Virus record (IMG/VR): IMGVR_UViG_3300025723_000029
Direction: 5' to 3' (one strand)
Length of the DNA stretch: 20,000 nucleotides
Origin: an uncultured virus (IMG/VR IMGVR_UViG_3300025723_000029)
Lineage: Duplodnaviria; Heunggongvirae; Uroviricota; Caudoviricetes
Both the position numbers and the translations under genes were made by a program. The notes below the pieces were generated by a model, which was given only the letters and a program-made list of their open reading frames with translations, was not told the origin of the DNA and did not search any database. Positions 7,876 through 16,917 of this stretch are shown here, piece by piece; position 1 is the stretch's first letter, and every line of letters begins with the position of its first letter.

Positions 7876-8841
7876 ATGAAAAAAATGTTAGTTTTGGGCG
7901 CAGGCGGTTTTATTGGGTCGCACTTGGTTATCCGATTAAAAAAACAAGGACATTATGTAACTGGGGTTGATTTACATTTGCCAGAATTTAGTGTAACCGC
8001 TGCTGATAATTTTATTGTTGGCGATTTACGAGACCGTGATGTGTGTAGAATGTTGTTGGAAGAACCTGTCGATGAAATTTATCAATTGGCTGCAGATATG
8101 GGCGGAGCAGGCTACGTGTTTACGGGCATAAACGATATGGACATTCTTTATAACTCAGCTTTGATAAATTTAAATATTATCAATGAGTTGATGAAAAATC
8201 CTAAACCAAAAATCTTTTTTAGTTCGTCTGCTTGTATATACCCGGCTTACAATCAACTTGACCCTGATAACCCCAATTGTGAAGAAAGTAGTGCATATCC
8301 GGCCGAGCCTGACAGTGAGTATGGGTGGGAAAAGTTGTTTAGTGAACGCTTATATCAAAATTTAAAAAAAAACTACGGAGTCGAGGTTCATATTGGTAGA
8401 TATCATAATATTTTTGGTGTTGAAACTAGCTGGAACAACGGCAAAGAAAAGGCGCCGGCAGCTATTTGCCGAAAGGTAGCCCAGGCACACGACGGTGGAT
8501 CAATCGACGTGTGGGGGGATGGATCGCAGACTCGTTCATTCTTGTATATTGACGAATGTTTGGATGCTACTATTAAAATAATGGCTAGCGATTTTGCTGG
8601 GCCAGCTAACATAGGTAGCGAAGAGTCAGTTAGCATCACTGAATTAGCAAAAAAAGTAATAGCTATTTCAGGAAAAAATATTTCAATTAATTATGTAGAC
8701 GGTCCTATTGGAGTTAACGGTAGAAATTCAGACAATAGATTGATTAAAGAAAAACTAGGATGGACCCATACTCAATCATTGGATGATGGGTTGAAAAAGT
8801 TATATGATTGGATAGTCCAGCAAAACAATGCTGTTAACTAA
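7876..8841 (+). CDS. NAD-dependent nucleotide-sugar epimerase, GDP-mannose 3,5-epimerase-like
   Basis: GAGGFIG Rossmann motif, LAADMGGAG, SSSACIYP, AYPAEP, YGWEK (YxxxK), RYHNIFG, EKAPAAICRK, VWGDGSQTRSFLYIDEC, GVNGRNSDN. Confidence 0.88.
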   Translation: MKKMLVLGAGGFIGSHLVIRLKKQGHYVTGVDLHLPEFSVTAADNFIVGDLRDRDVCRMLLEEPVDEIYQLAADMGGAGYVFTGINDMDILYNSALINLNIINELMKNPKPKIFFSSSACIYPAYNQLDPDNPNCEESSAYPAEPDSEYGWEKLFSERLYQNLKKNYGVEVHIGRYHNIFGVETSWNNGKEKAPAAICRKVAQAHDGGSIDVWGDGSQTRSFLYIDECLDATIKIMASDFAGPANIGSEESVSITELAKKVIAISGKNISINYVDGPIGVNGRNSDNRLIKEKLGWTHTQSLDDGLKKLYDWIVQQNNAVN

Positions 8842-9544
8842 AGAAACCCTTTATATATGCGGAGACAGTTTTTGTTCTAGCGACCCCGACTATGGCAATA
8901 ATTGGACTGAGATGCTGGCTAAAAAATTGCCCAACACAACCGTCGTTAATTTATCTATACCGGGTGCTAGTAATTACTTGATATATCTACAGGTTAAACA
9001 CGCTTTAAAAAATCAGTGCGATTATTTAATATATAACGCTACTGGATCAACTCGTCAGGAATTTGTTTTGAATTTAAATGATTCCCAAACAGATAATATA
9101 AATCGATATCACAATGTGTTGGCACCAGGTGCCCGCAAGGAGTTATTGTGTATGTCATGGGTTAATCCGTTTAATCCAAAATTGCACAACAATATTTTTA
9201 CCACTGCCTGTGTAGACAAAATTAAAAACTTTTTTATGCGGTATGTAGATATGCCGTCGACAATTGAAAAAAATTATATTTTTATACAACAAACCCTATC
9301 AATGATTGATTCTGCTAAGAATGTCAAAGGATGGGCCTGGAGTCAGGGTGGATTTGAACATAAAAATTTTAAACCTGCACAAGATTGGAACTTTTCAAAA
9401 TATAAAGAAAAAGAAAATTGCATCAATCTTTGGGACTACTACGATTCATCTATAGCTCGACCCTACTATCATATAACTGACAAAAAAATTCTCCAAAGTG
9501 TTTGTGATCAATATCTTAATATGTTAAACTTAAACACCATATGA
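8828..9544 (+). CDS. SGNH/GDSL-like hydrolase or acyltransferase family protein
   Basis: ICGDSF block I, VNLSIPGASN block II, His near the C-terminus (PYYH); overlaps both neighbours. Confidence 0.55.
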   Translation: MLLTKETLYICGDSFCSSDPDYGNNWTEMLAKKLPNTTVVNLSIPGASNYLIYLQVKHALKNQCDYLIYNATGSTRQEFVLNLNDSQTDNINRYHNVLAPGARKELLCMSWVNPFNPKLHNNIFTTACVDKIKNFFMRYVDMPSTIEKNYIFIQQTLSMIDSAKNVKGWAWSQGGFEHKNFKPAQDWNFSKYKEKENCINLWDYYDSSIARPYYHITDKKILQSVCDQYLNMLNLNTI

Positions 9545-11304
9545 TCCAAATTAAAAAACTAACCGTTAAAAACTTCATGAGTGTGGGCAATGCCACACAG
9601 GCCATCGATTTTGATCGGTCAGACCTTACTCTTGTGTTGGGTGAAAATCTTGACCTGGGCGGTGACGGCAGTCGCAACGGCACCGGCAAGACCACCATCA
9701 TCAACGCACTCAGCTATGCCTTGTATGGCAACGCACTCAGCAATATCAGAAAAGACAACCTGGTCAACAAGACCAACGGCAAGGGCATGCTGGTCAGTCT
9801 GGACTTTGTGTTGGGCGCACAGGCGTATCGAATCGAACGTGGTCGCAAGCCCAACCTACTGAAATTCTATGTCAACAGCGAACAAAAGGTCGCCGCGGAC
9901 GAAGCACAGGGCGACAGCCGAGAAACACAGGAAGCCATCGAGTCGGTGCTGGGACTCAGCCACGACATGTTCAAACACATCATGGCCTTGAATACCTATA
10001 CCGAACCATTCTTGAGTCTCAAGGCCAACGATCAACGCACCATAATCGAGCAGTTGTTGGGCATCACACAACTGAGCGATCGAGCCGATCGCATCAAAGA
10101 GTTGAACAAGGGCACACGAGATGCCATACAGCAAGAAGAGTTCAGGATACGAGCTGTGCAAGAGGCCAATCAACGCATCCAAGAACAGATTGAAAATCTC
10201 AAACGTAGACAACGACTATGGGCGGAAAAACATTCCACTGACGTACAGGAACTGGAAAAAGCACTCGAGGCGCTACAAAATATACAGATCGAAGACGAAA
10301 TTGCAGCGCATCAAGCACACCGGGCTTGGGATCAAAAAAGAAAAGACTTCAACGATCTATCCGGTCAGATCAGCCGCACCAAACTGGACCGTGATCGAGA
10401 AAACAAAACGATAGACAAACTGTCGAAAGAAATTGCAACGCTGGAGAGTCACGAATGCCATACCTGCGGCCAGCCCTTCCACGACAACAAGCACCAATCG
10501 GTCGTGACAGCGAAACAGGAGGATCTGGCAACAGCTAGAACAGCAAGCCTGGCACATGCACAGCTCTTGGCAGACCTCGAGCTTGCAGTTGAAACCCTGG
10601 GCACGCTGGGGAGACCGCCCAAGATGTTCTATGACAACGAAGCTGACGCGATTCAGCATCGTGCCACAGTGGCCGGTCTCGTACAGCAGATTGATCACAA
10701 GCGACAAGAAATCGACCCTTACACTGAACAGATTGAAGAAATGACCCAGGCTGCCTTGCAAGAAGTCTCCTACGACAGCATGAATGAACTCACTCGCTTG
10801 CAAGAGCATCAGGAGTTCTTGCTCAAACTGCTGACCAGCAAGGACAGTTTCATACGCAAAAAGATCATAGAACAGAATCTCAGTTACCTGAATGCCAGAC
10901 TCACACACTATCTGGACAGCATGGGACTGCCGCACACAGTCATATTCCAGAATGACCTCACAGTTTTGATCGAAGAGCTGGGCCGCGAGCTGGACTTTGA
11001 CAATCTCAGTAGAGGTGAACGCAACCGACTGATTCTCAGCATGAGCTGGGCCTTCCGTGATGTGTTTGAAAGTTTGTACCAGCCAATCAACCTTCTGTTC
11101 ATAGATGAAATGATCGACAACGGCTTGGACACAGCTGGTGTGGAAGCGGCCCTGGCCTTGCTCAAGCACATGAGTCGCGAGCGCCACAAGAGCATATGGT
11201 TGGTCAGTCACCGAGACGAGCTGGCTGGCCGAGTGGAGAATATACTAAAAGTGGTCAAAGAGAATGGCTATACCAGCTATAACACAGACGTGGAGATGGC
11301 ATGA
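9541..11304 (+). CDS. gp46: Recombination nuclease ATPase subunit, T4 gp46/SbcC/Rad50-like
   Basis: KNFMSVG, Walker A RNGTGKTT, coiled coil with zinc hook CHTCGQ, signature LSRGE, Walker B LLFIDE, H-loop VSH. Confidence 0.93.
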   Translation: MIQIKKLTVKNFMSVGNATQAIDFDRSDLTLVLGENLDLGGDGSRNGTGKTTIINALSYALYGNALSNIRKDNLVNKTNGKGMLVSLDFVLGAQAYRIERGRKPNLLKFYVNSEQKVAADEAQGDSRETQEAIESVLGLSHDMFKHIMALNTYTEPFLSLKANDQRTIIEQLLGITQLSDRADRIKELNKGTRDAIQQEEFRIRAVQEANQRIQEQIENLKRRQRLWAEKHSTDVQELEKALEALQNIQIEDEIAAHQAHRAWDQKRKDFNDLSGQISRTKLDRDRENKTIDKLSKEIATLESHECHTCGQPFHDNKHQSVVTAKQEDLATARTASLAHAQLLADLELAVETLGTLGRPPKMFYDNEADAIQHRATVAGLVQQIDHKRQEIDPYTEQIEEMTQAALQEVSYDSMNELTRLQEHQEFLLKLLTSKDSFIRKKIIEQNLSYLNARLTHYLDSMGLPHTVIFQNDLTVLIEELGRELDFDNLSRGERNRLILSMSWAFRDVFESLYQPINLLFIDEMIDNGLDTAGVEAALALLKHMSRERHKSIWLVSHRDELAGRVENILKVVKENGYTSYNTDVEMA

Positions 11305-12803
11305 CTGACGTAGTGATTTTAACTATACCTAGAGTGGCACCAGTGCGTCCAGCAGCAGCACCAGCAATCATCAAAGGTATTTTAAATCGCTTGAATGTTA
11401 CAAGTCGTATTTTAGATATCAATATCGATTACTTTACAGATTTCAAAAAAAACACAGATGCAGGACTGTTTAACGAAATTGACGAGTTTTTATTTGTCAA
11501 AAATAAAAAAATTGGTCAAGTTGCACAAAAAACGTTAGATCTATTTGTTCAACAATGGATTGATCAGATACTGTTGGAGAAACCAAAAAAATTATTTATC
11601 AGTGTGTTCAGCTGGCAAGCACAAAGATTTTGTGTGGAGTTTTTAACTCGATTAAGAAAACTATCTACGGTAGAAGTGATTGTGGGGGGACAAGGACTGA
11701 TACGAGAAGAAAACGGAAGCTATAGTCAACGTCCTGAATTTGCACACTTTTTAAAAGATCAACAGTTGATCGATCATTGGATCCGTGGTGAGGCCGAAAC
11801 AACCATTCCGTTTATTATGGCCGGTGATTATTCTGTGGCTGGTATTGACACCGATTTCTTAGCAGAATACAGCAACATAAAAGAACATGCTCCAATGGAT
11901 TTTAGCGACTTTGACATTACCAAATACCAAAGTGGTTATACTACCGGAGTACTGCCGATGGAAACTAGTCGAGGTTGTGTAAGAAATTGTGTATTTTGTG
12001 ACATTCCTACCATGCAGGGAGGCTATAGATTCAAACGCGGTAAACAGTTGGCTGACGAGATGATACATTACTACGAACACTATCAAGTGCGCGATTACTT
12101 TTTTCATGACGCATTGTGCAACGGAAGTGTGAAAGATTTCAGAGAATTCAATCAAACCTTAGTGGATTACTACAAAAAAAATAATTTGCCAAACAGATAT
12201 TTCAAATACAGTAGTCATGCTATTGTGCAACCTTACAGTAATTTTAAATCAGCTGATTTTGAAATCATGGCACAAGGTGGTGCAGATACCATGGTTATCG
12301 GAATAGAAACCGGTAGTGATCGTGTAAGAAAACACATGCGCAAGGGCTTTACCGGTGCTGACTTAGATTATAACATGGAAGAATACAGCAAGAACAAAAT
12401 ACAAGTGTATTTTCTTATCATTGTGGGCTTTCCCACCGAGACTAGAGAAGACTTTGACCAGACTCTAGAAATGCTGACTCGTTATCAAAGATATGTGGCC
12501 GACGGCACAGTGATCGGTGTGAATTTAGGAACCACCTTGACCATTGAAGAAGGAACCGAAATGTACGATTATCCAGAGCGCCTAAACTTGATCGGCGTCA
12601 ACGGCAATCGCCCCCAGGGTGCCGACTGGAAATGCTTGGATAATCCAGAATTAACCTACAAAGAACGCATCATGCGACGACTTGAAGCCCAAGAACATGC
12701 AGTAAATCTAGGTTATACCTTTTGGAAGGGCGACGATCAAATCAAAATTATGATGGACAAGTACCAGGAAAGAATTGCACGACTAGCTGGAGTGATACAT
12801 TGA
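11301..12803 (+). CDS. Radical SAM protein with N-terminal B12-binding-like domain
   Basis: ETSRGCVRNCVFC (CxxxCxxC) after a ~215-aa N-terminal domain (ISVFS, VIVGG, RGEAE); GIETGSDRVRKHMRKG and IVGFPTETREDF. Confidence 0.85.
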   Translation: MTDVVILTIPRVAPVRPAAAPAIIKGILNRLNVTSRILDINIDYFTDFKKNTDAGLFNEIDEFLFVKNKKIGQVAQKTLDLFVQQWIDQILLEKPKKLFISVFSWQAQRFCVEFLTRLRKLSTVEVIVGGQGLIREENGSYSQRPEFAHFLKDQQLIDHWIRGEAETTIPFIMAGDYSVAGIDTDFLAEYSNIKEHAPMDFSDFDITKYQSGYTTGVLPMETSRGCVRNCVFCDIPTMQGGYRFKRGKQLADEMIHYYEHYQVRDYFFHDALCNGSVKDFREFNQTLVDYYKKNNLPNRYFKYSSHAIVQPYSNFKSADFEIMAQGGADTMVIGIETGSDRVRKHMRKGFTGADLDYNMEEYSKNKIQVYFLIIVGFPTETREDFDQTLEMLTRYQRYVADGTVIGVNLGTTLTIEEGTEMYDYPERLNLIGVNGNRPQGADWKCLDNPELTYKERIMRRLEAQEHAVNLGYTFWKGDDQIKIMMDKYQERIARLAGVIH

Positions 12804-13300
12804 AATTAGATATTTCTTTAAGCGTCGAACGAGGATTAGGAGATCCACTGGTAAAAATAATTGTAGACGATTATTTGACCTTGGCCGACGGTCCTGCACA
12901 GGACCAATACAGTTTTGAACTCAACATACCAGACGAATTGCATTCATTAAAAATTACACACTACGGCAAAACCATCGACGATGCTAGCAACAGCAATATT
13001 GACAAACATGTAGAAATAACGGCAATCAGTATGGATCAAATTTCACTTGAGAGAGAATTGTGGGATGGTAAATTTTTTCCAATTTATCTACACAAAACCG
13101 ACAGCGATCCTTACTACATCAGTCCCAATCTGTATCTAGGGCACAACGGCACTTGGGTCTTGGAGTTTACCACCCCGGCGCCACTGTGGTTAATTTCTTT
13201 ACGCAAGCCTGGGCCAAAATTAGATAATACTATTTTTAAAACCAACAAACAGACATTGGATCATGCTAAAGATTTTTTTAAAGGGTTGCCCGATGTTTAA
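12800..13300 (+). CDS. Hypothetical protein (166 aa) in the radical SAM cassette
   Basis: TTG start at 12800 overlapping the upstream TGA, with GGAG at 12789-12792; fills the gap between the two RS genes. Confidence 0.65.
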   Translation: MKLDISLSVERGLGDPLVKIIVDDYLTLADGPAQDQYSFELNIPDELHSLKITHYGKTIDDASNSNIDKHVEITAISMDQISLERELWDGKFFPIYLHKTDSDPYYISPNLYLGHNGTWVLEFTTPAPLWLISLRKPGPKLDNTIFKTNKQTLDHAKDFFKGLPDV

Positions 13301-14405
13301 TGTAACAGACATACAGGAATATCAACTGGAAATTACCAGTTACTGTAATGCCGCATGCCCGCAATGTCCTCGCAATGAAAATGGTCGCGGTATCAACAAA
13401 AGAATGCCGCTGTGCCATCTCGATCGTACTGTAATAGATCAAACTTTTATCGCTGGAATATGCAAAGGTCTGAATCAGATTTTTTTCTGTGGTAGCTACG
13501 GCGATCCTATTATGCATCCAAATTTTTTGGATATCTTGCGTGATTTTCGTAAAAAGAATCCCACACTGTGGTTGTATTTTCATACTAACGGTGGTGTGCA
13601 TGAACCAGAGTACTGGGCAGAAATTGCCAGGATCATGGCCGGTTATGGACAAATAGATTTTGGTATCGATGGCCTGGAAGATACTTTACATTTGTATAGG
13701 AAAAATGTAAACTATAACAAAGTGATCAAAAATGCCAAGTCTTTTATTGACGCAGGGGGTCGTGCTCAATGGAATTTTATTGTGTTTCAACACAACGAGC
13801 ATCAGGTAGAAAAGGCCAAACAGCTGGGCAAGGATTTGGGTTTTTTTAATGTGTTGATTAGAAAAACTGGAAGATTTTTTAATCACAGGACTGTTGAAGA
13901 AATGACAGCATGGCCTGTCAGGGACGAGTATGTTATAGAACCGCCTGTTAATCCCGAGTACCGCAATCAGAGCATGCTGTTTTTACCAGAATTAAAACGA
14001 CAGTACAGCAATATTAAAGACTATTTTGATACCACAGAAATCAAATGCGATGCCATGATTGGCCCCAAGGTTGTTGTCAATGCAGAAGGATTGGTATTGC
14101 CCTGTAACTTTTTTAATCATAATCTGTACGATCGTAGATTTTACGAGGCAGGTGTGTTGCCCGAGTCCAACCAGTTGAGCACAGTTGATGGCAAAAATCA
14201 AGTTAGGTCGTTTTTGGAAAGTTACGATTTAGACAGTTTCAATATTAATCTGCACAGTTTAGAAGAAATTTTTAGTAATTCTATGTGGGCAGATCTAGTA
14301 AAGTCGTGGAACAAAACACTGGCCAACGGTCGTTTGTTTGAGTGTGCCATGACCTGTGGTTCTAAAATTACCAAAGTATGGGATCAAGGAGGAAGTAAAC
14401 GATGA
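13293..14405 (+). CDS. Radical SAM protein with C-terminal Cys-containing twitch/SPASM-like region (370 aa)
   Basis: Likely start MFNVTD at 13293. EITSYCNAACPQC, FCGSYGDP, HTNGG, FGIDGLEDT; C-terminal C...NAEGLVLPC...CAMTC. Confidence 0.85.
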   Translation: MFNVTDIQEYQLEITSYCNAACPQCPRNENGRGINKRMPLCHLDRTVIDQTFIAGICKGLNQIFFCGSYGDPIMHPNFLDILRDFRKKNPTLWLYFHTNGGVHEPEYWAEIARIMAGYGQIDFGIDGLEDTLHLYRKNVNYNKVIKNAKSFIDAGGRAQWNFIVFQHNEHQVEKAKQLGKDLGFFNVLIRKTGRFFNHRTVEEMTAWPVRDEYVIEPPVNPEYRNQSMLFLPELKRQYSNIKDYFDTTEIKCDAMIGPKVVVNAEGLVLPCNFFNHNLYDRRFYEAGVLPESNQLSTVDGKNQVRSFLESYDLDSFNINLHSLEEIFSNSMWADLVKSWNKTLANGRLFECAMTCGSKITKVWDQGGSKR

Positions 14406-14986
14406 AATACATGATTACTGGCGGTAGCAAGGGCCTAGGACTTGCCATGATTGACCGTTTTGGCGGCGACAGTTACTGCCGAGGCAACGGCTTTGACATC
14501 ACAAAAGATACAGAAAAGTTGGCCAAGATCAGTTTAGACTATGACGTGTTTGTTAACAACGCATTTGACGGACCATTTCAAGAGCCCTGGGCCAATTTTG
14601 CACAGGTTCAGTTGTTGTATGCAGTTGGAGATCTGTGGGCCAAAGAAAACAAGTCAGGATATATTGTCAACATAGGCAGTGTCGGCAGTGAAACAGTGTC
14701 GGCGCCGATTCCAAGTTTTGAAACCTATCGTGTGAGCAAGGCAGCCTTGAAAGAACACAGTCGCCAGTGGACACGAGCATTCAAAGACAACAAGGTACCG
14801 TTCAAAACCAGTCTACTCACCCTCGATCGGCTGGATACTGATTTGACTCGCAACAGATCCAGCTGGACTGGGAACGGAATTGACACAGCAGATATCTGTT
14901 CGTACATTGAGCTAATTACTAATGCTCAACCAAACACATGCATTGAAGAAATTATAGGGTGGGTGAATTTTGATCATAAACAATAG
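14402..14986 (+). CDS. Short-chain dehydrogenase/reductase (compact, 194 aa)
   Basis: ITGGSKGLG, VFVNNA, IVNIGS, YRVSK (YxxxK). Confidence 0.85.
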   Translation: MKYMITGGSKGLGLAMIDRFGGDSYCRGNGFDITKDTEKLAKISLDYDVFVNNAFDGPFQEPWANFAQVQLLYAVGDLWAKENKSGYIVNIGSVGSETVSAPIPSFETYRVSKAALKEHSRQWTRAFKDNKVPFKTSLLTLDRLDTDLTRNRSSWTGNGIDTADICSYIELITNAQPNTCIEEIIGWVNFDHKQ

Positions 14987-14989
14987 TCC

Positions 14990-15430
14990 ATGTCATGGTT
15001 ATACGAAAACACCCAGATCAACCAACTGCCCGAAGACTGTGTGGGCTTTGTGTACCTGATCACAAACACCACAACCGGACGTCGATACATCGGCAAAAAA
15101 CTAGCAAAATTCAGCAAGACCACGTACAAGGTAGTCAAACTCAAAAACGGCAACAAGAAACGAAAACGCATCCGCAGCAAGATAGACTCAGACTGGCAAC
15201 AATACTACGGCAGCAACGATCAACTGAACCAAGACCTACTGGCGCTGGGCGCCGACAACTTCACTAGACAGATACTATTTTACTGTAAAAGCAAGGCCGA
15301 ATGCAACTATATTGAAGCCCGCGAACAGTTCCGTCATCAAGTACTGGAATCAGACGCTTGGTACAACGGGCAGATAGTGTGCCGCATACACGGCAGTCAT
15401 ATAAAAAACAAACTTTCTACAGGCAACTAA
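14990..15430 (+). CDS. GIY-YIG endonuclease, T4 endonuclease II-like
   Basis: GFVYLITN...RRYIGKK, YYGS, NFTRQIL, conserved E and terminal YN; basic insertion KVVKLKNGNKKRKRIR. Confidence 0.85.
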   Translation: MSWLYENTQINQLPEDCVGFVYLITNTTTGRRYIGKKLAKFSKTTYKVVKLKNGNKKRKRIRSKIDSDWQQYYGSNDQLNQDLLALGADNFTRQILFYCKSKAECNYIEAREQFRHQVLESDAWYNGQIVCRIHGSHIKNKLSTGN

Positions 15431-15431
15431 A

Positions 15432-15832
15432 CCGACTGTGTTTGATCGAGGTAGCTCGATCCCCGTTGAGGGCCGACAGTATCGGCTCGGATAGAATGGA
15501 CCTAGGTTCGCTCGGGTGTCAAAGGCAATTGCTAACTTAAGGCAACAAAGGATTTGAGCTCTGTGAAAAAGACACAACTCATGCCCATAGGACTTGGATT
15601 TACGATTGGGTCACTAGGGTTCCGTTGATATGTGAAGCTAGAGTAGGGGGTACCGGTCAACCGCCTCCGTCGTGAAAACGAATCTCTTTATCGTAAATGA
15701 CAGCTACAACTCGGATAATGTAGAAGTCAGTTCACCGTGAATACGGTGAATTGTGACCGCATAATCTGGATAATGCAAGAGAAGAACACAGTTGCTGAGC
15801 ACAGCGAAAGCAACAGATCTCGTTAGAGATCT
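15432..15832 (+). ncRNA. Candidate large structured non-coding RNA (family not recognised)
   Basis: No credible ORF in an otherwise gene-packed window; at least 10 stems including a 9-bp long-range helix, a GAAA-capped hairpin and G-U pairs that only form on the plus strand. Confidence 0.6.
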
Positions 15833-15853: not shown

Positions 15854-16084
15854 TTAAAAGAAAGGCAGTCCTGACTTTTTGGTAGTTTCCAAATTGTCCT
15901 TGATCAGCTGATTGATCAACACTCGTTCGCTGGCACTGAGTTGCAGGGCATGTTCGTAGCTGAGCCCGCCACGCATGTACCAACTGAGCTGGAAAGCCTC
16001 TTGTCTGATCTTGTTGCACTCTTTTTCCATATCGTCTACCATGAGCCCGATCTGTTCAGAGTCCGAGATCAGGAGGCGCGATCG
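15854..16084 (-). CDS. Small baseplate/tail assembly ORF, probably the -1 frameshift extension of the gp26-like gene (alternative ATG at 16042 or 16030)
   Basis: LSWYMRGGLSYEHALQLSASERVLINQLIKDNLE...GLPFF; frame is open back through the slippery heptamer at 16084-16090; no clear RBS before internal ATGs. Confidence 0.7.
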   Translation of the reverse strand, partial: RSRLLISDSEQIGLMVDDMEKECNKIRQEAFQLSWYMRGGLSYEHALQLSASERVLINQLIKDNLETTKKSGLPFF

Positions 16085-16917
16085 AAAAAACTCGACATGT
16101 CCAGAGTCAGTTGCTGTTGATACACATGATTGCACTCGTCGCAGGTCAATTGCATGGGCTGCATTTCTGACTGCGATTTTAGGTCAATCGCATGATCGCG
16201 TATCTGCGCAAACAGTCGACGATCACAGTTTTTGAGCATTTCTTCAATGTATTCAGGTTCGTGTACCATGGCTGTGGGGGTCTTGACTGCGGCAATGCTC
16301 TGGGCCAAGGCATGCACCGTGACTTCGGTTATCTTTTTCAAGGCATCGCTGACTGCTGTGATTTTGGCTTCGTTGATCTGCTCGGAATCTGACAGATCTG
16401 GCATCATCTGTAACAGCTTTTGATTTTCGTACTGCATGCGATTGTTATCGCTGAGATTCTTGTAGCTCATGGGACGGAAAAATATCTCCATGTCGCCTGA
16501 CTGCACGCTGCTGTCGTAGTCGCCGGCTGTGAGGCTTTCCAGCACAGATCTAAGATCTATTGCACGGTCTGACTGGGCCCGGCAACTGGGGCAGGTGCTG
16601 CCAAATTCCATTTCGTGCCCGTAGCTGGCCATGCGTATGGCAGCCAAGATAGCATCCATGTCCGTGGCCGGAATAGCCCAGGCATCTATAATGTCGGGCA
16701 TGCAACTCTTGATCACGTTCACTGTGGATTGTCCGTTGAACAGGCTGTCTGGAGTACGATAGGTTATTTCGTCTATGGCAGTCATGGGATATACTGGATA
16801 TTCGCCGGTGACACTGGGATTCAGGGCACCGGGTGGATAAAATCGTCCGTTGCTGGGCAAGCGTATGTACACTGCTGGTTGGCGGAAATACTGTTTTAGT
16901 GGGTTAGTTTGGCTCAT
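16069..16917 (-). CDS. gp26: Baseplate hub/assembly protein, T4 gp26-like
   Basis: NPLKQYFRQPAVYIRLPS.G.FY, PMTAIDEI, D.DAILAAIRMASYG, CPSC and CDEC motifs; GAGGA RBS. Confidence 0.7.
   Translation of the reverse strand: MSQTNPLKQYFRQPAVYIRLPSNGRFYPPGALNPSVTGEYPVYPMTAIDEITYRTPDSLFNGQSTVNVIKSCMPDIIDAWAIPATDMDAILAAIRMASYGHEMEFGSTCPSCRAQSDRAIDLRSVLESLTAGDYDSSVQSGDMEIFFRPMSYKNLSDNNRMQYENQKLLQMMPDLSDSEQINEAKITAVSDALKKITEVTVHALAQSIAAVKTPTAMVHEPEYIEEMLKNCDRRLFAQIRDHAIDLKSQSEMQPMQLTCDECNHVYQQQLTLDMSSFFDRAS

What the first reader, a model, noticed from the sequence alone, without database searches (positions are those of the whole stretch)
15432..15832. ~400-nt densely structured non-coding element directly after the GIY-YIG nuclease gene: candidate nuclease-associated large RNA
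Seen: this is the longest ORF-free stretch in a window whose genes mostly overlap or abut, and much of it can pair. Stems: GATCGAG/CTCGATC (15444-15461); GCCGA/TCGGC (15472-15486); TGAG-TGTG/CACA-CTCA (15555-15581); a perfect long-range helix ATTTACGAT (15598-15606)/ATCGTAAAT (15690-15698) enclosing a multibranch domain with GGGGG/CCTCC, CGG-TCAA-CCG and TCGT-GAAA-ACGA; CTACA/TGTAG (15704-15723); 11-bp CAGTTCACCGT/ACGGTGAATTG (15728-15753); GCAT/ATGC; GTTGCT/AGCAAC; AGATCTC/GAGATCT. G-U wobbles and the GAAA loop favour the plus strand, co-oriented with the nuclease. I see no tRNA, tmRNA, RNase P or group I/II intron core. Inference: a phage large ncRNA co-transcribed with a GIY-YIG protein whose basic insertion could bind RNA. 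The layout recalls TnpB/IscB nuclease-RNA pairs, but RNA guidance is speculation.
Basis: partly seen in the sequence, partly recalled or inferred. Interest (0 to 1): 0.82.

Follow-up and report, generated by a model that had tools for sequence, protein, structure and literature searches.

The report
Knotted RNA marks jumbo-phage replication start
The gene-free stretch is a real, widely conserved, doubly knotted RNA followed by DNA-type signals, found in a family of giant phages. It does not depend on the neighbouring nuclease gene and most likely marks where these phages start copying their DNA, although that function is inferred, not shown.

Summary
The element is real. It follows the GIY-YIG gene in 71 of 72 informative loci and covaries strongly: 60 of 91 pairs show double changes, including a 9-bp pseudoknot. 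It has no Rfam match. The nuclease-guide idea fails: 9 of 65 element loci lack the GIY-YIG, other genes or other resolvases sit beside it, and cultured Rak2-like phages lacking that nuclease carry 3-5 dispersed, co-oriented copies. The element has two parts. The 5' part is a plus-strand RNA with two pseudoknots and GNRA loops. The 3' part looks like DNA: genome-specific direct repeats around a hairpin, an A-rich tract and C-GNA-G mini-hairpins (69/124 versus 0/124 in the 5' part). ColE1 has the same order. A published PA5oct transcript covers one copy and ends before its mini-hairpins. Best reading (0.55): an RNA-primed replication origin. Against: no skew signal, one copy and no own promoter in most lake phages, weak sequence link between clades, no experiment. 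The scan found the enterobacterial family before, function unknown; its notes I saw do not mention the lake-phage or PA5oct branches.

The parts
14880..14908 (+). Sigma-70-like promoter match TTGACA-17-TACATT inside the upstream SDR gene; possible source of a read-through transcript
   Evidence: 10 of 12; the region has no more such matches than shuffles; function untested
14976..14982 (+). ATAAACA motif just before the GIY-YIG start; resembles the late promoters of T4-like phages (resemblance recalled)
   Evidence: motif HTAAN[TC]A at -22..-5 in 49 of 59 sequences examined
14990..15430 (+). SegE-like GIY-YIG protein (PF19835, phrog_447), 146 aa; neighbour, probably a branch-cutting nuclease, not part of the element
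   Evidence: model with I-TevI catalytic domain as best plausible fold match, E 0.34, prob 0.92; slot held by phrog_244 or endo VII in relatives
15434..15520 (+). RNA 5' domain: helices P1 (15434-36/15518-20), P2 (15444-61), P3 (15462-65/15513-16), P4 (15470-88)
   Evidence: P2 is partly misaligned between subgroups (75% paired)
15529..15581 (+). P5 and P6; P6 holds the motif GAT-N3-5-GCTCTG-N1-4-GAAA[AC]AGA
   Evidence: motif occurs once in the window (15551) and exactly 3 times in PA5oct, in its three copies
15584..15698 (+). Double-pseudoknot core: hairpin P7 15584-15619; PK1 15598-15606 with 15690-98; PK2 15624-28 with 15657-61; P8 15641-43/15684-86; P9 15646-68 with near-invariant GGTAC.GG.....CGCC; P10 15670-81 (GAAA loop)
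   Evidence: same topology in 12 cultured-phage copies and in PA5oct
15698..15720 (.). Direct repeat 1: TGAC-N8-CTC-GGATAATG
   Evidence: changes together with repeat 2 (identity 0.96-1.00, E = 0.00); repeat pair found in 58 of 60 sequences
15728..15753 (.). Central palindrome; carries a G6 run in enterobacterial-phage copies
   Evidence: (z -5.4 as DNA)
15754..15775 (.). Direct repeat 2: TGAC-N7-TCT-GGATAATG
15776..15790 (+). A-rich spacer (candidate unwinding or RNA-to-DNA switch region)
   Evidence: in 107 of 124 homologues measured: median 26 nt, 73% A+T against 53% in the 5' domain
15791..15832 (+). Two DNA-type hairpins: GA-GC-loop-GC-GA tandem-GA hairpin (15791-15814) and C-GTTA-G mini-hairpin (15815-32)
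   Evidence: tandem-GA motif in 110 of 124; C-GNA-G triloop hairpin in 69 of 124 here against 0 of 124 in the 5' domain; covariation
15854..16917 (-). Convergent gp51-like (15854-16135) and gp26-like baseplate-hub chaperone (16069-16917) genes; conserved downstream anchor

Best explanation
The element is an RNA-primed replication origin of Rak2-like jumbo phages. SHOWN: a conserved plus-strand RNA fold with two pseudoknots, then two direct repeats fixed within a genome around a palindrome, an A-rich tract and DNA-type mini-hairpins; 1-5 dispersed copies per genome, all on one strand. INFERRED: RNA polymerase transcribes it (own extended -10 promoter in enterobacterial phages, read-through from upstream in most lake phages). 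The folded 5' domain steers the RNA's 3' end to stay hybridised at the palindrome/G-run and A-rich tract as an R-loop. RNase H trims it into the leading-strand primer. A phage protein bound to the two repeats gives genome specificity. The displaced plus strand folds its mini-hairpins as a primase or helicase loading signal. The GIY-YIG is the lake phages' interchangeable branch-cutting nuclease in the gp47-gp46 block and is only a neighbour.
For: (1) RNA-type loops 5', DNA-type loops 3'. G-U bias in the 5' helices, none in the last two hairpins (10 G-U, 14 A-C). GCGNAGC/GCGNNAGC hairpins are much more stable as DNA and occur at G4, St-1 and alpha3 priming sites and RSF1010 ssiA (PMC13037366, passages). 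(2) Same order as ColE1: G6 at 1175-80, A5 at 1193-97, GAGCGTAGCGA at 1332-42 of NC_001371 on the primer-sense strand (1 of 200 shuffles). ColE1 has a ~600-bp ori with an RNase H-processed primer and a downstream ssiA (PMC3167613, passages). (3) 12 of 12 copies in three enterobacterial phages have TG-N-TA[T/C/A]AAT 444-592 nt before a G6 run. 5 of the 6 G6 runs in the 357-kb BF genome lie in its five copies, all on +. (4) Copies are dispersed and co-oriented: BF 30, 93, 175, 259, 335 kb; vB_Ec-M-J 60, 112, 196, 307 kb; RaK2 7, 192, 280 kb; PA5oct 13, 77, 247 kb. T4 uses at least 5 dispersed origins, two of them shown to be promoter + AT-rich element + R-loop (PMC3016281, passages). (5) The repeat is shared by the copies within a genome and differs between genomes: BF CGTCAG, vB_Ec-M-J CGTCAA, RaK2 CTTCAAG, as expected for a phage-specific DNA-binding site. 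[quoted passage not shown] (7) An 11-kb E. coli integrative island with an integrase and no annotated Rep gene keeps a complete copy with promoter, BF-type repeats, G6 and GAGCGAAGCGA, as a satellite would. (8) RNase HI flanks the equivalent gap in phage Phosso.
Against: No experiment and no RNA reads for this window. GC and third-position skew follow gene strand and show no inflection at any copy in G001 or BF. The 99%-complete lake genome G001 has one copy, and five partial lake genomes have one each. Lake copies have no G6 run. Of 27 lake loci scanned only L112 has a strong sigma-70 promoter directly upstream, and a late-type motif precedes the GIY-YIG gene, which suits an early origin poorly. 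The sequence link between lake and enterobacterial copies is weak: 18.3 bits, E about 0.04 one way, 14.6 bits and rank 2 in the window the other way, and neither model scores the PA5oct copies. The topology descriptor was written after seeing the sequences; it misses RaK2's 3 copies and 22 of 124 lake copies, and gives one probably false hit in Atu_ph07. No copy was found in Atu_ph07 and Phosso's is not confirmed. Only 1 of 3 PA5oct copies was listed as an ncRNA. PK2 mismatches are C-A in 9 of 60 sequences, which does not favour the + strand. The unbiased G-U/A-C contrast between domains was not significant (88:55 vs 34:31, p = 0.23). T4's own R-loop origins need no folded RNA.
Confidence: 0.55

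Rival explanations
1. A trans-acting large ncRNA (ROOL/GOLLD/OLE-like, regulatory, structural or catalytic). The 3' repeats and hairpins are only a terminator, a processing site or operators for neighbouring genes.
For: Ornate conserved fold with a near-invariant core; own promoter in 12 of 12 cultured copies; a discrete transcript in PA5oct; 15815-32 scores as terminator-like on the minus strand; island carriage could be a decoy against the phage.
Against: The PA5oct RNA is rare and highest early (0.08% to 0.02%) while ncRNA001 and ncRNA002 reach 2-5%. C-GNA-G loops, tandem GA and identity-covarying repeats are DNA-type features kept in most copies. Dispersed same-strand copies are not needed for a trans-acting RNA.
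Confidence: 0.25
2. A cis DNA site for recombination-dependent initiation, resolution or packaging: the palindrome extrudes a cruciform cut by the adjacent resolvase (GIY-YIG, phrog_244 or endo VII), and transcription only opens the DNA.
For: One copy sits beside a branch-cutting nuclease in almost every lineage. The three nucleases appear mutually exclusive in the genomes tested: G001 lacks phrog_244 and PF02945; BF, PA5oct and Phosso lack phrog_447.
Against: The two BF copies whose neighbours I read have no nuclease next to them; RaK2's slot has endo VII and no copy; it does not explain a 270-500-nt covarying RNA fold.
Confidence: 0.08
3. A non-autonomous mobile element or selfish ribozyme that spreads within and between genomes.
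For: Several diverged copies per genome; presence in a bacterial island; varied contexts in L092, L098, L112, L135, L146.
Against: One copy keeps the gp46-gp26 slot across lake, enterobacterial and Pseudomonas phages; all copies lie on one strand and between genes; no reverse transcriptase or transposase seen beside any copy examined. Target-site duplications were not tested.
Confidence: 0.07
4. One reading: a guide or scaffold RNA for the GIY-YIG nuclease, in the manner of TnpB/IscB.
For: Core within 350 nt of the GIY-YIG stop in 59 of 72 loci; same strand; long basic beta-hairpin in the model.
Against: Element without nuclease, nuclease without element, intervening genes, no guide-like variable segment, no Rfam HEARO or other match.
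Confidence: 0.03

Closest known systems
ColE1/pMB1 plasmid origin (RNA II preprimer, RNase H, Pol I, n'-pas/ssiA)
   Same: Promoter, then about 450-600 nt of folded RNA, G6 run, A-run and a downstream GAGCG-N-AGCGA hairpin on the primer-sense strand. That this ColE1 motif is the n'-pas itself is recalled, not seen in a paper.
   Different: No sequence match in the plasmid collection and no RNAI family match; two pseudoknots; genome-specific direct repeats; several copies in a 290-380 kb phage with its own replisome; no G6 run in lake or PA5oct copies.
Phage T4 origins oriF/ori(uvsY) and oriG/ori(34)
   Same: Several dispersed origins; promoter plus AT-rich unwinding element; R-loop primer (PMC3016281, passages).
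   Different: T4 origins are about 100 bp, share little sequence and need no specific RNA fold; here the fold is large and conserved across copies and genera.
Single-strand initiation hairpins of phages G4, St-1, alpha3 and RSF1010 ssiA; N4 vRNAP promoter
   Same: GCGNAGC/GCGNNAGC-type DNA mini-hairpins, including the GTTA loop seen in this window (PMC13037366, passages).
   Different: Here they lie in double-stranded DNA behind an RNA gene; no primase binding shown.
Large ornate ncRNAs GOLLD, ROOL, OLE, raiA, HEARO, GEBRO, ARRPOF
   Same: Size, many helices, pseudoknots, phage or mobile-element setting (family traits recalled; only search listings seen).
   Different: No Rfam 15 match; DNA-type 3' part.
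PA5oct ncRNA004 (Lood et al. 2020, PMC7318152)
   Same: A 619-nt plus-strand transcript that coincides with one copy of this architecture.
   Different: In the passages I read the paper gives no structure, family, paralogues or function; homology rests on topology and one sequence motif, not on model scores.

Membership tests
OMEGA/TnpB/IscB-type nuclease-guide RNA | Obligate linkage of RNA and nuclease | tested here: not met
   9 of 65 loci without GIY-YIG; BF 5 copies, no phrog_447; nuclease without RNA
OMEGA/TnpB/IscB-type nuclease-guide RNA | RuvC/HNH nuclease and a variable guide next to a scaffold | tested here: not met
   Protein is PF19835 GIY-YIG; the variable part is a duplicated repeat
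Rfam families (HEARO, GOLLD, ROOL, OLE, raiA, RNase P, group I/II introns, RNAI) | Covariance-model match | tested here: not met
   None at E <= 1 over the element; none at gathering score in six cultured-phage loci
ColE1-type origin | Sequence similarity to RNA II / RNA I | tested here: not met
   No plasmid hit for the enterobacterial copy; descriptor finds nothing in the ColE1 origin region
ColE1-type origin | Promoter 450-600 nt upstream of a G-run, A-run and ssi-type hairpin | tested here: met
   Met in 12 of 12 enterobacterial-phage copies; the window itself has the hairpins but no G6 run and no adjacent promoter
ColE1-type origin | Antisense RNA I control | not tested
   No dedicated search for a conserved antisense promoter; one search shows none inside the window's element
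RNA-primed origin (ColE1/T4 type) | Persistent R-loop, RNA-DNA junction, autonomous replication in cis | not testable with these tools
   Needs experiment
RNA-primed origin (ColE1/T4 type) | Strand-composition switch at the site | tested here: inconclusive
   Skew follows gene strand, no inflection in G001 or BF; not expected for several same-direction origins
RNA-primed origin (ColE1/T4 type) | Transcribed on the predicted strand, ending at the unwinding element | tested here: inconclusive
   Fits PA5oct ncRNA004; 1 of 3 copies; short-read boundaries; nothing for this window
Holliday-junction resolvase (for the GIY-YIG protein) | Non-orthologous replacement of a known resolvase in the same slot | tested here: met
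   one near-complete lake genome only; activity untested

The most novel reading that the evidence does not exclude
The near-invariant double-pseudoknot core is an active module, either a ribozyme that cuts its own 3' end into the primer or a scaffold that loads the phage replisome, making this a new class of RNA-defined, multi-copy phage origin that satellite-like bacterial islands have captured to be copied by the infecting jumbo phage.
Probability: 0.2. Interest if true: 0.95.

Novelty: new variant of a known kind. Interest (0 to 1): 0.76.

Why it matters
In the passages and listings I saw, no replication origin is described for Rak2-like jumbo phages (121Q, BF, GAP32, RaK2, PA5oct, Paride). 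This gives exact, testable candidates in cultured phages of laboratory hosts. It joins lake, enterobacterial and Pseudomonas phages in one uncatalogued RNA architecture and gives a published orphan transcript a structure. It also bears on a question left open for T4 in PMC3016281: what rules govern R-loop formation at phage origins. If it is instead a trans-acting RNA, it is still a large new family with a conserved knotted core. It removes a false lead for an RNA-guided GIY-YIG nuclease.

Tried and rejected
Rfam and ARAGORN: nothing. blastn of the window's element against cultured phages: nothing; the link came through synteny. nhmmer with the lake profile found nothing in six cultured loci. 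GC skew: uninformative. Apparent second copies in lake genomes were chance hits: L228, L238/L239 inside an ORF. Ten of 80 pattern loci had no profile match and were dropped; L134 among them later scored E 0.011 with the RNA model. Fold search for the GIY-YIG gave no match at E <= 0.001 and no SLX1-type hit; solved-structure sequence search gave only 3r3p at E 0.008. RNA reads could not be examined for this window, so its expression is open. Fremin 2023 (PMC10690425): six core motifs and five contig names not found in the 6 supplementary files searchable each time; two large files were unreadable, so a 30-150-nt fragment of this RNA may be among its 8,495 candidates. CBB (PMC5259590) and Munch (PMC8273493) papers: passages on 'repeat', 'origin', 'intergenic' do not mention the element. 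Ten literature searches listed no paper describing it; most subscription journals and bioRxiv supplements are not covered.

Full report
Setting. The window is a piece of a T4-superfamily jumbo phage: gp55 sigma factor, gp47, gp46, a radical-SAM/SDR cassette, a SegE-like GIY-YIG gene (14990-15430, +; PF19835, phrog_447), a 423-nt gap, then convergent gp51-like and gp26-like genes. Its closest cultured relatives by the hub protein are Rak2-like phages at 28-35% identity. The host is unknown.

Observation. The stems are there. The 401 nt fold with z = -3.24 on + and -2.71 on -, but the 5' 269 nt give z = -0.30, so energy alone proves little. Rfam and ARAGORN find nothing.

Conservation. I took the best 80 of at least 599 GIY-YIG loci, so the set leans to close relatives. 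Eight end too soon. Of the other 72, the core lies within 350 nt of the stop in 59, at 351-700 nt in 4 and beyond 700 nt, behind an inserted ORF, in 7. One has the 5' part at the contig end, and one (L048) has none. After removing copies above 95% identity, 49 and 75 sequences of two subtypes remained from 67 and 84 full-length ones. A G-test with a tree-based null gave 12 and 20 column pairs at E = 0.00, of which 10 and 16 are base pairs and 2 and 2 are identity links between the two direct repeats. On 36 sequences of the window's subtype, 91 named pairs are 92.8% paired and 60 have double changes; no shuffle of 500 reaches this and slid partners give 38-44%.

Structure. A second pseudoknot joins GTTGA 15624-28 to TCAAC 15657-61. 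It is invariant in that alignment but compensates in the wider set: all five pairs in 50 of 60 sequences, four in 10, nine of these with a C-A mismatch; the partner was chosen for best pairing.

Two chemistries. In 124 sequences the 5' domain has 60 GNRA against 2 GNYA tetraloops and never a C-GNA-G triloop hairpin. The 3' end has such a hairpin in 69 sequences and a tandem-GA hairpin in 110. These mini-hairpins are far more stable in DNA than in RNA and occur at phage and plasmid priming sites (PMC13037366, passages). G-U exceeds A-C 244:40 in the 5' helices and 10:14 in the last two hairpins (helices defined on the window); a strand-neutral selection gave 88:55 and 34:31, p = 0.23. Between the two parts lie two direct repeats around a palindrome, found in 58 of 60 sequences, whose 6-11-nt core is identical within a locus and differs between loci, then an A-rich tract.

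Independence from the nuclease. 56 have the GIY-YIG upstream (8 of them more than 1 kb from the core) and 9 do not. In L122 and L140 a phrog_244 resolvase takes its place and in L092 it follows the element; L094 and L108 carry a similar protein by inspection. L112 has a terminator and a perfect TTGACA-17-TATAAT directly upstream. In cultured phages the slot between gp46 and gp26/51 holds endo VII (BF, vB_Ec-M-J, RaK2) or a RusA-like/Holliday junction resolvase (PA5oct, Phosso), and in all of these but RaK2 a gap of 0.8-1.5 kb. G001 (99% complete) has the GIY-YIG but neither phrog_244 nor PF02945; BF, PA5oct and Phosso lack phrog_447. G006, Melnitz and S-SM2 have the GIY-YIG and no element. I infer that the GIY-YIG is an interchangeable branch-cutting nuclease; its model best matches the I-TevI catalytic domain, weakly.

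Copies in cultured phages. The vB_Ec-M-J gap matches 72 phage records, mostly at 4-5 places. BF has copies at 30, 93, 175, 259 and 335 kb, vB_Ec-M-J at 60, 112, 196 and 307 kb, RaK2 at 7, 192 and 280 kb, all on +. These 12 copies show the same topology: 94% of cells paired, 14 of 25 pairs with double changes, PK2 5 of 5; PK1 is complementary in each by inspection. All 12 have an extended -10 promoter 444-592 nt before a G6 run. Five of BF's six G6 runs, and all five AA[TC]C[TC]CGTCAG sites, lie in the copies. The G side of that hairpin is fixed while the C side drifts.

How good is the link between clades? Sequence evidence is weak. The lake-only model's two hits in BF both fall on copies, but at 18.3 bits, a score also reached elsewhere in other genomes. 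The reverse model ranks the window's core second. A topology descriptor written after seeing the sequences finds 1 hit in the window, exactly the 5 copies in BF, 1 in G001, 3 in PA5oct and none in shuffles; it recovers 102 of 124 lake copies, misses RaK2's three and gives one doubtful hit in Atu_ph07. The window's P6 motif occurs three times in PA5oct, once in each copy. With the shared slot, I regard homology as likely but not proved by score.

Expression. [quoted passage not shown] The other two PA5oct copies are not among the paper's four ncRNAs. No reads were available for this window.

Bacterial island. Following earlier scan notes, I found the element in 2 of 5,426 E. coli genomes. In one it lies in an island of about 11 kb next to ffs, with an integrase and no annotated Rep or primase, and keeps promoter, both pseudoknots, BF-type repeats, G6 and GAGCGAAGCGA. 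A satellite borrowing the phage's origin would look like this; so would a decoy.

Mechanism. The order promoter, folded RNA, G-run, A-tract, ssi-type hairpin is that of ColE1, where G6 (1175-80), A5 (1193-97) and GAGCGTAGCGA (1332-42) lie on the primer-sense strand (mechanism from PMC3167613, passages). Several dispersed R-loop origins are the T4 pattern (PMC3016281, passages). I therefore put an RNA-primed origin first (0.55). The fold, the DNA-type 3' part and the copy pattern are shown; R-loop, processing, repeat-binding protein and priming are inferred. Against it: no skew signal, a single copy in G001 and five partial lake genomes, no G6 run and mostly no own promoter in lake copies with a late-type motif ahead of the GIY-YIG, and no copy found in Atu_ph07. 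A trans-acting ncRNA is the main rival (0.25).

Novelty. Not in Rfam 15; not found in ten literature searches. Papers seen: passages of PMC7318152, PMC5259590, PMC8273493, PMC5778457, PMC3016281, PMC13037366, PMC3167613 and PMC10690425 (plus searches of 6 of its supplementary files; two unreadable files may hold a fragment); all others as search listings only. The scan had already noted the enterobacterial family as a multi-copy RNA of unknown function; I had found those copies, before seeing the notes. It works like a ColE1/T4-type origin if the best reading holds, but is not a member of the ColE1 family or of any nuclease-guide family.

Noticed in passing
window 16082-16089 (minus strand TTTTTTC near the end of the gp26-like gene): The slippery run that earlier scan notes propose for a -1 frameshift into the gp51-like ORF is present here.
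   Followed up: no
window 15418-15430; L042, L045, L092, L098 upstream of the element: Short AGGCA/GGGCA words, up to three copies, precede the element's 5' end in many loci; possible processing or binding sites.
   Followed up: partly
L002, L006, L015, L018 (GIY-YIG stop): The GIY-YIG reading frame appears to run 80-115 nt into the element's 5' end in these loci.
   Followed up: no
L028, L037 vs L080; L039 vs L055, central hairpin loop: Loop sequences of the central palindrome occur as reverse complements between relatives (CCCGCCCTGGG / CCCAGGGCGGG), as expected from loop inversion at a DNA cruciform.
   Followed up: no
L206:7224-8237 (Phosso) and L201:6535-8047 (PA5oct): The GAGCG/GAGTG-type terminal hairpin motif lies on the opposite strand in these two gaps; Phosso's gap is single-copy, borders an RNase HI gene and was not confirmed as the same element.
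   Followed up: partly
window 7876-14986; L079:3434-4264 and similar: The cassette of epimerase, radical-SAM, SDR and roughly 190-300-aa unassigned ORFs is shuffled among relatives and inserts on either side of the GIY-YIG and of the element.
   Followed up: no
L050:3430-3900, L078:3660-4150, L067:3430-3900: Further diverged subtypes of the element with different core sequence but the same repeat-hairpin-repeat and terminal hairpins.
   Followed up: partly
L302:1167-1180 (ColE1): CTCGTCAG directly precedes the ColE1 G6 run and matches the BF-type repeat; probably chance, since the repeat differs between phages.
   Followed up: no
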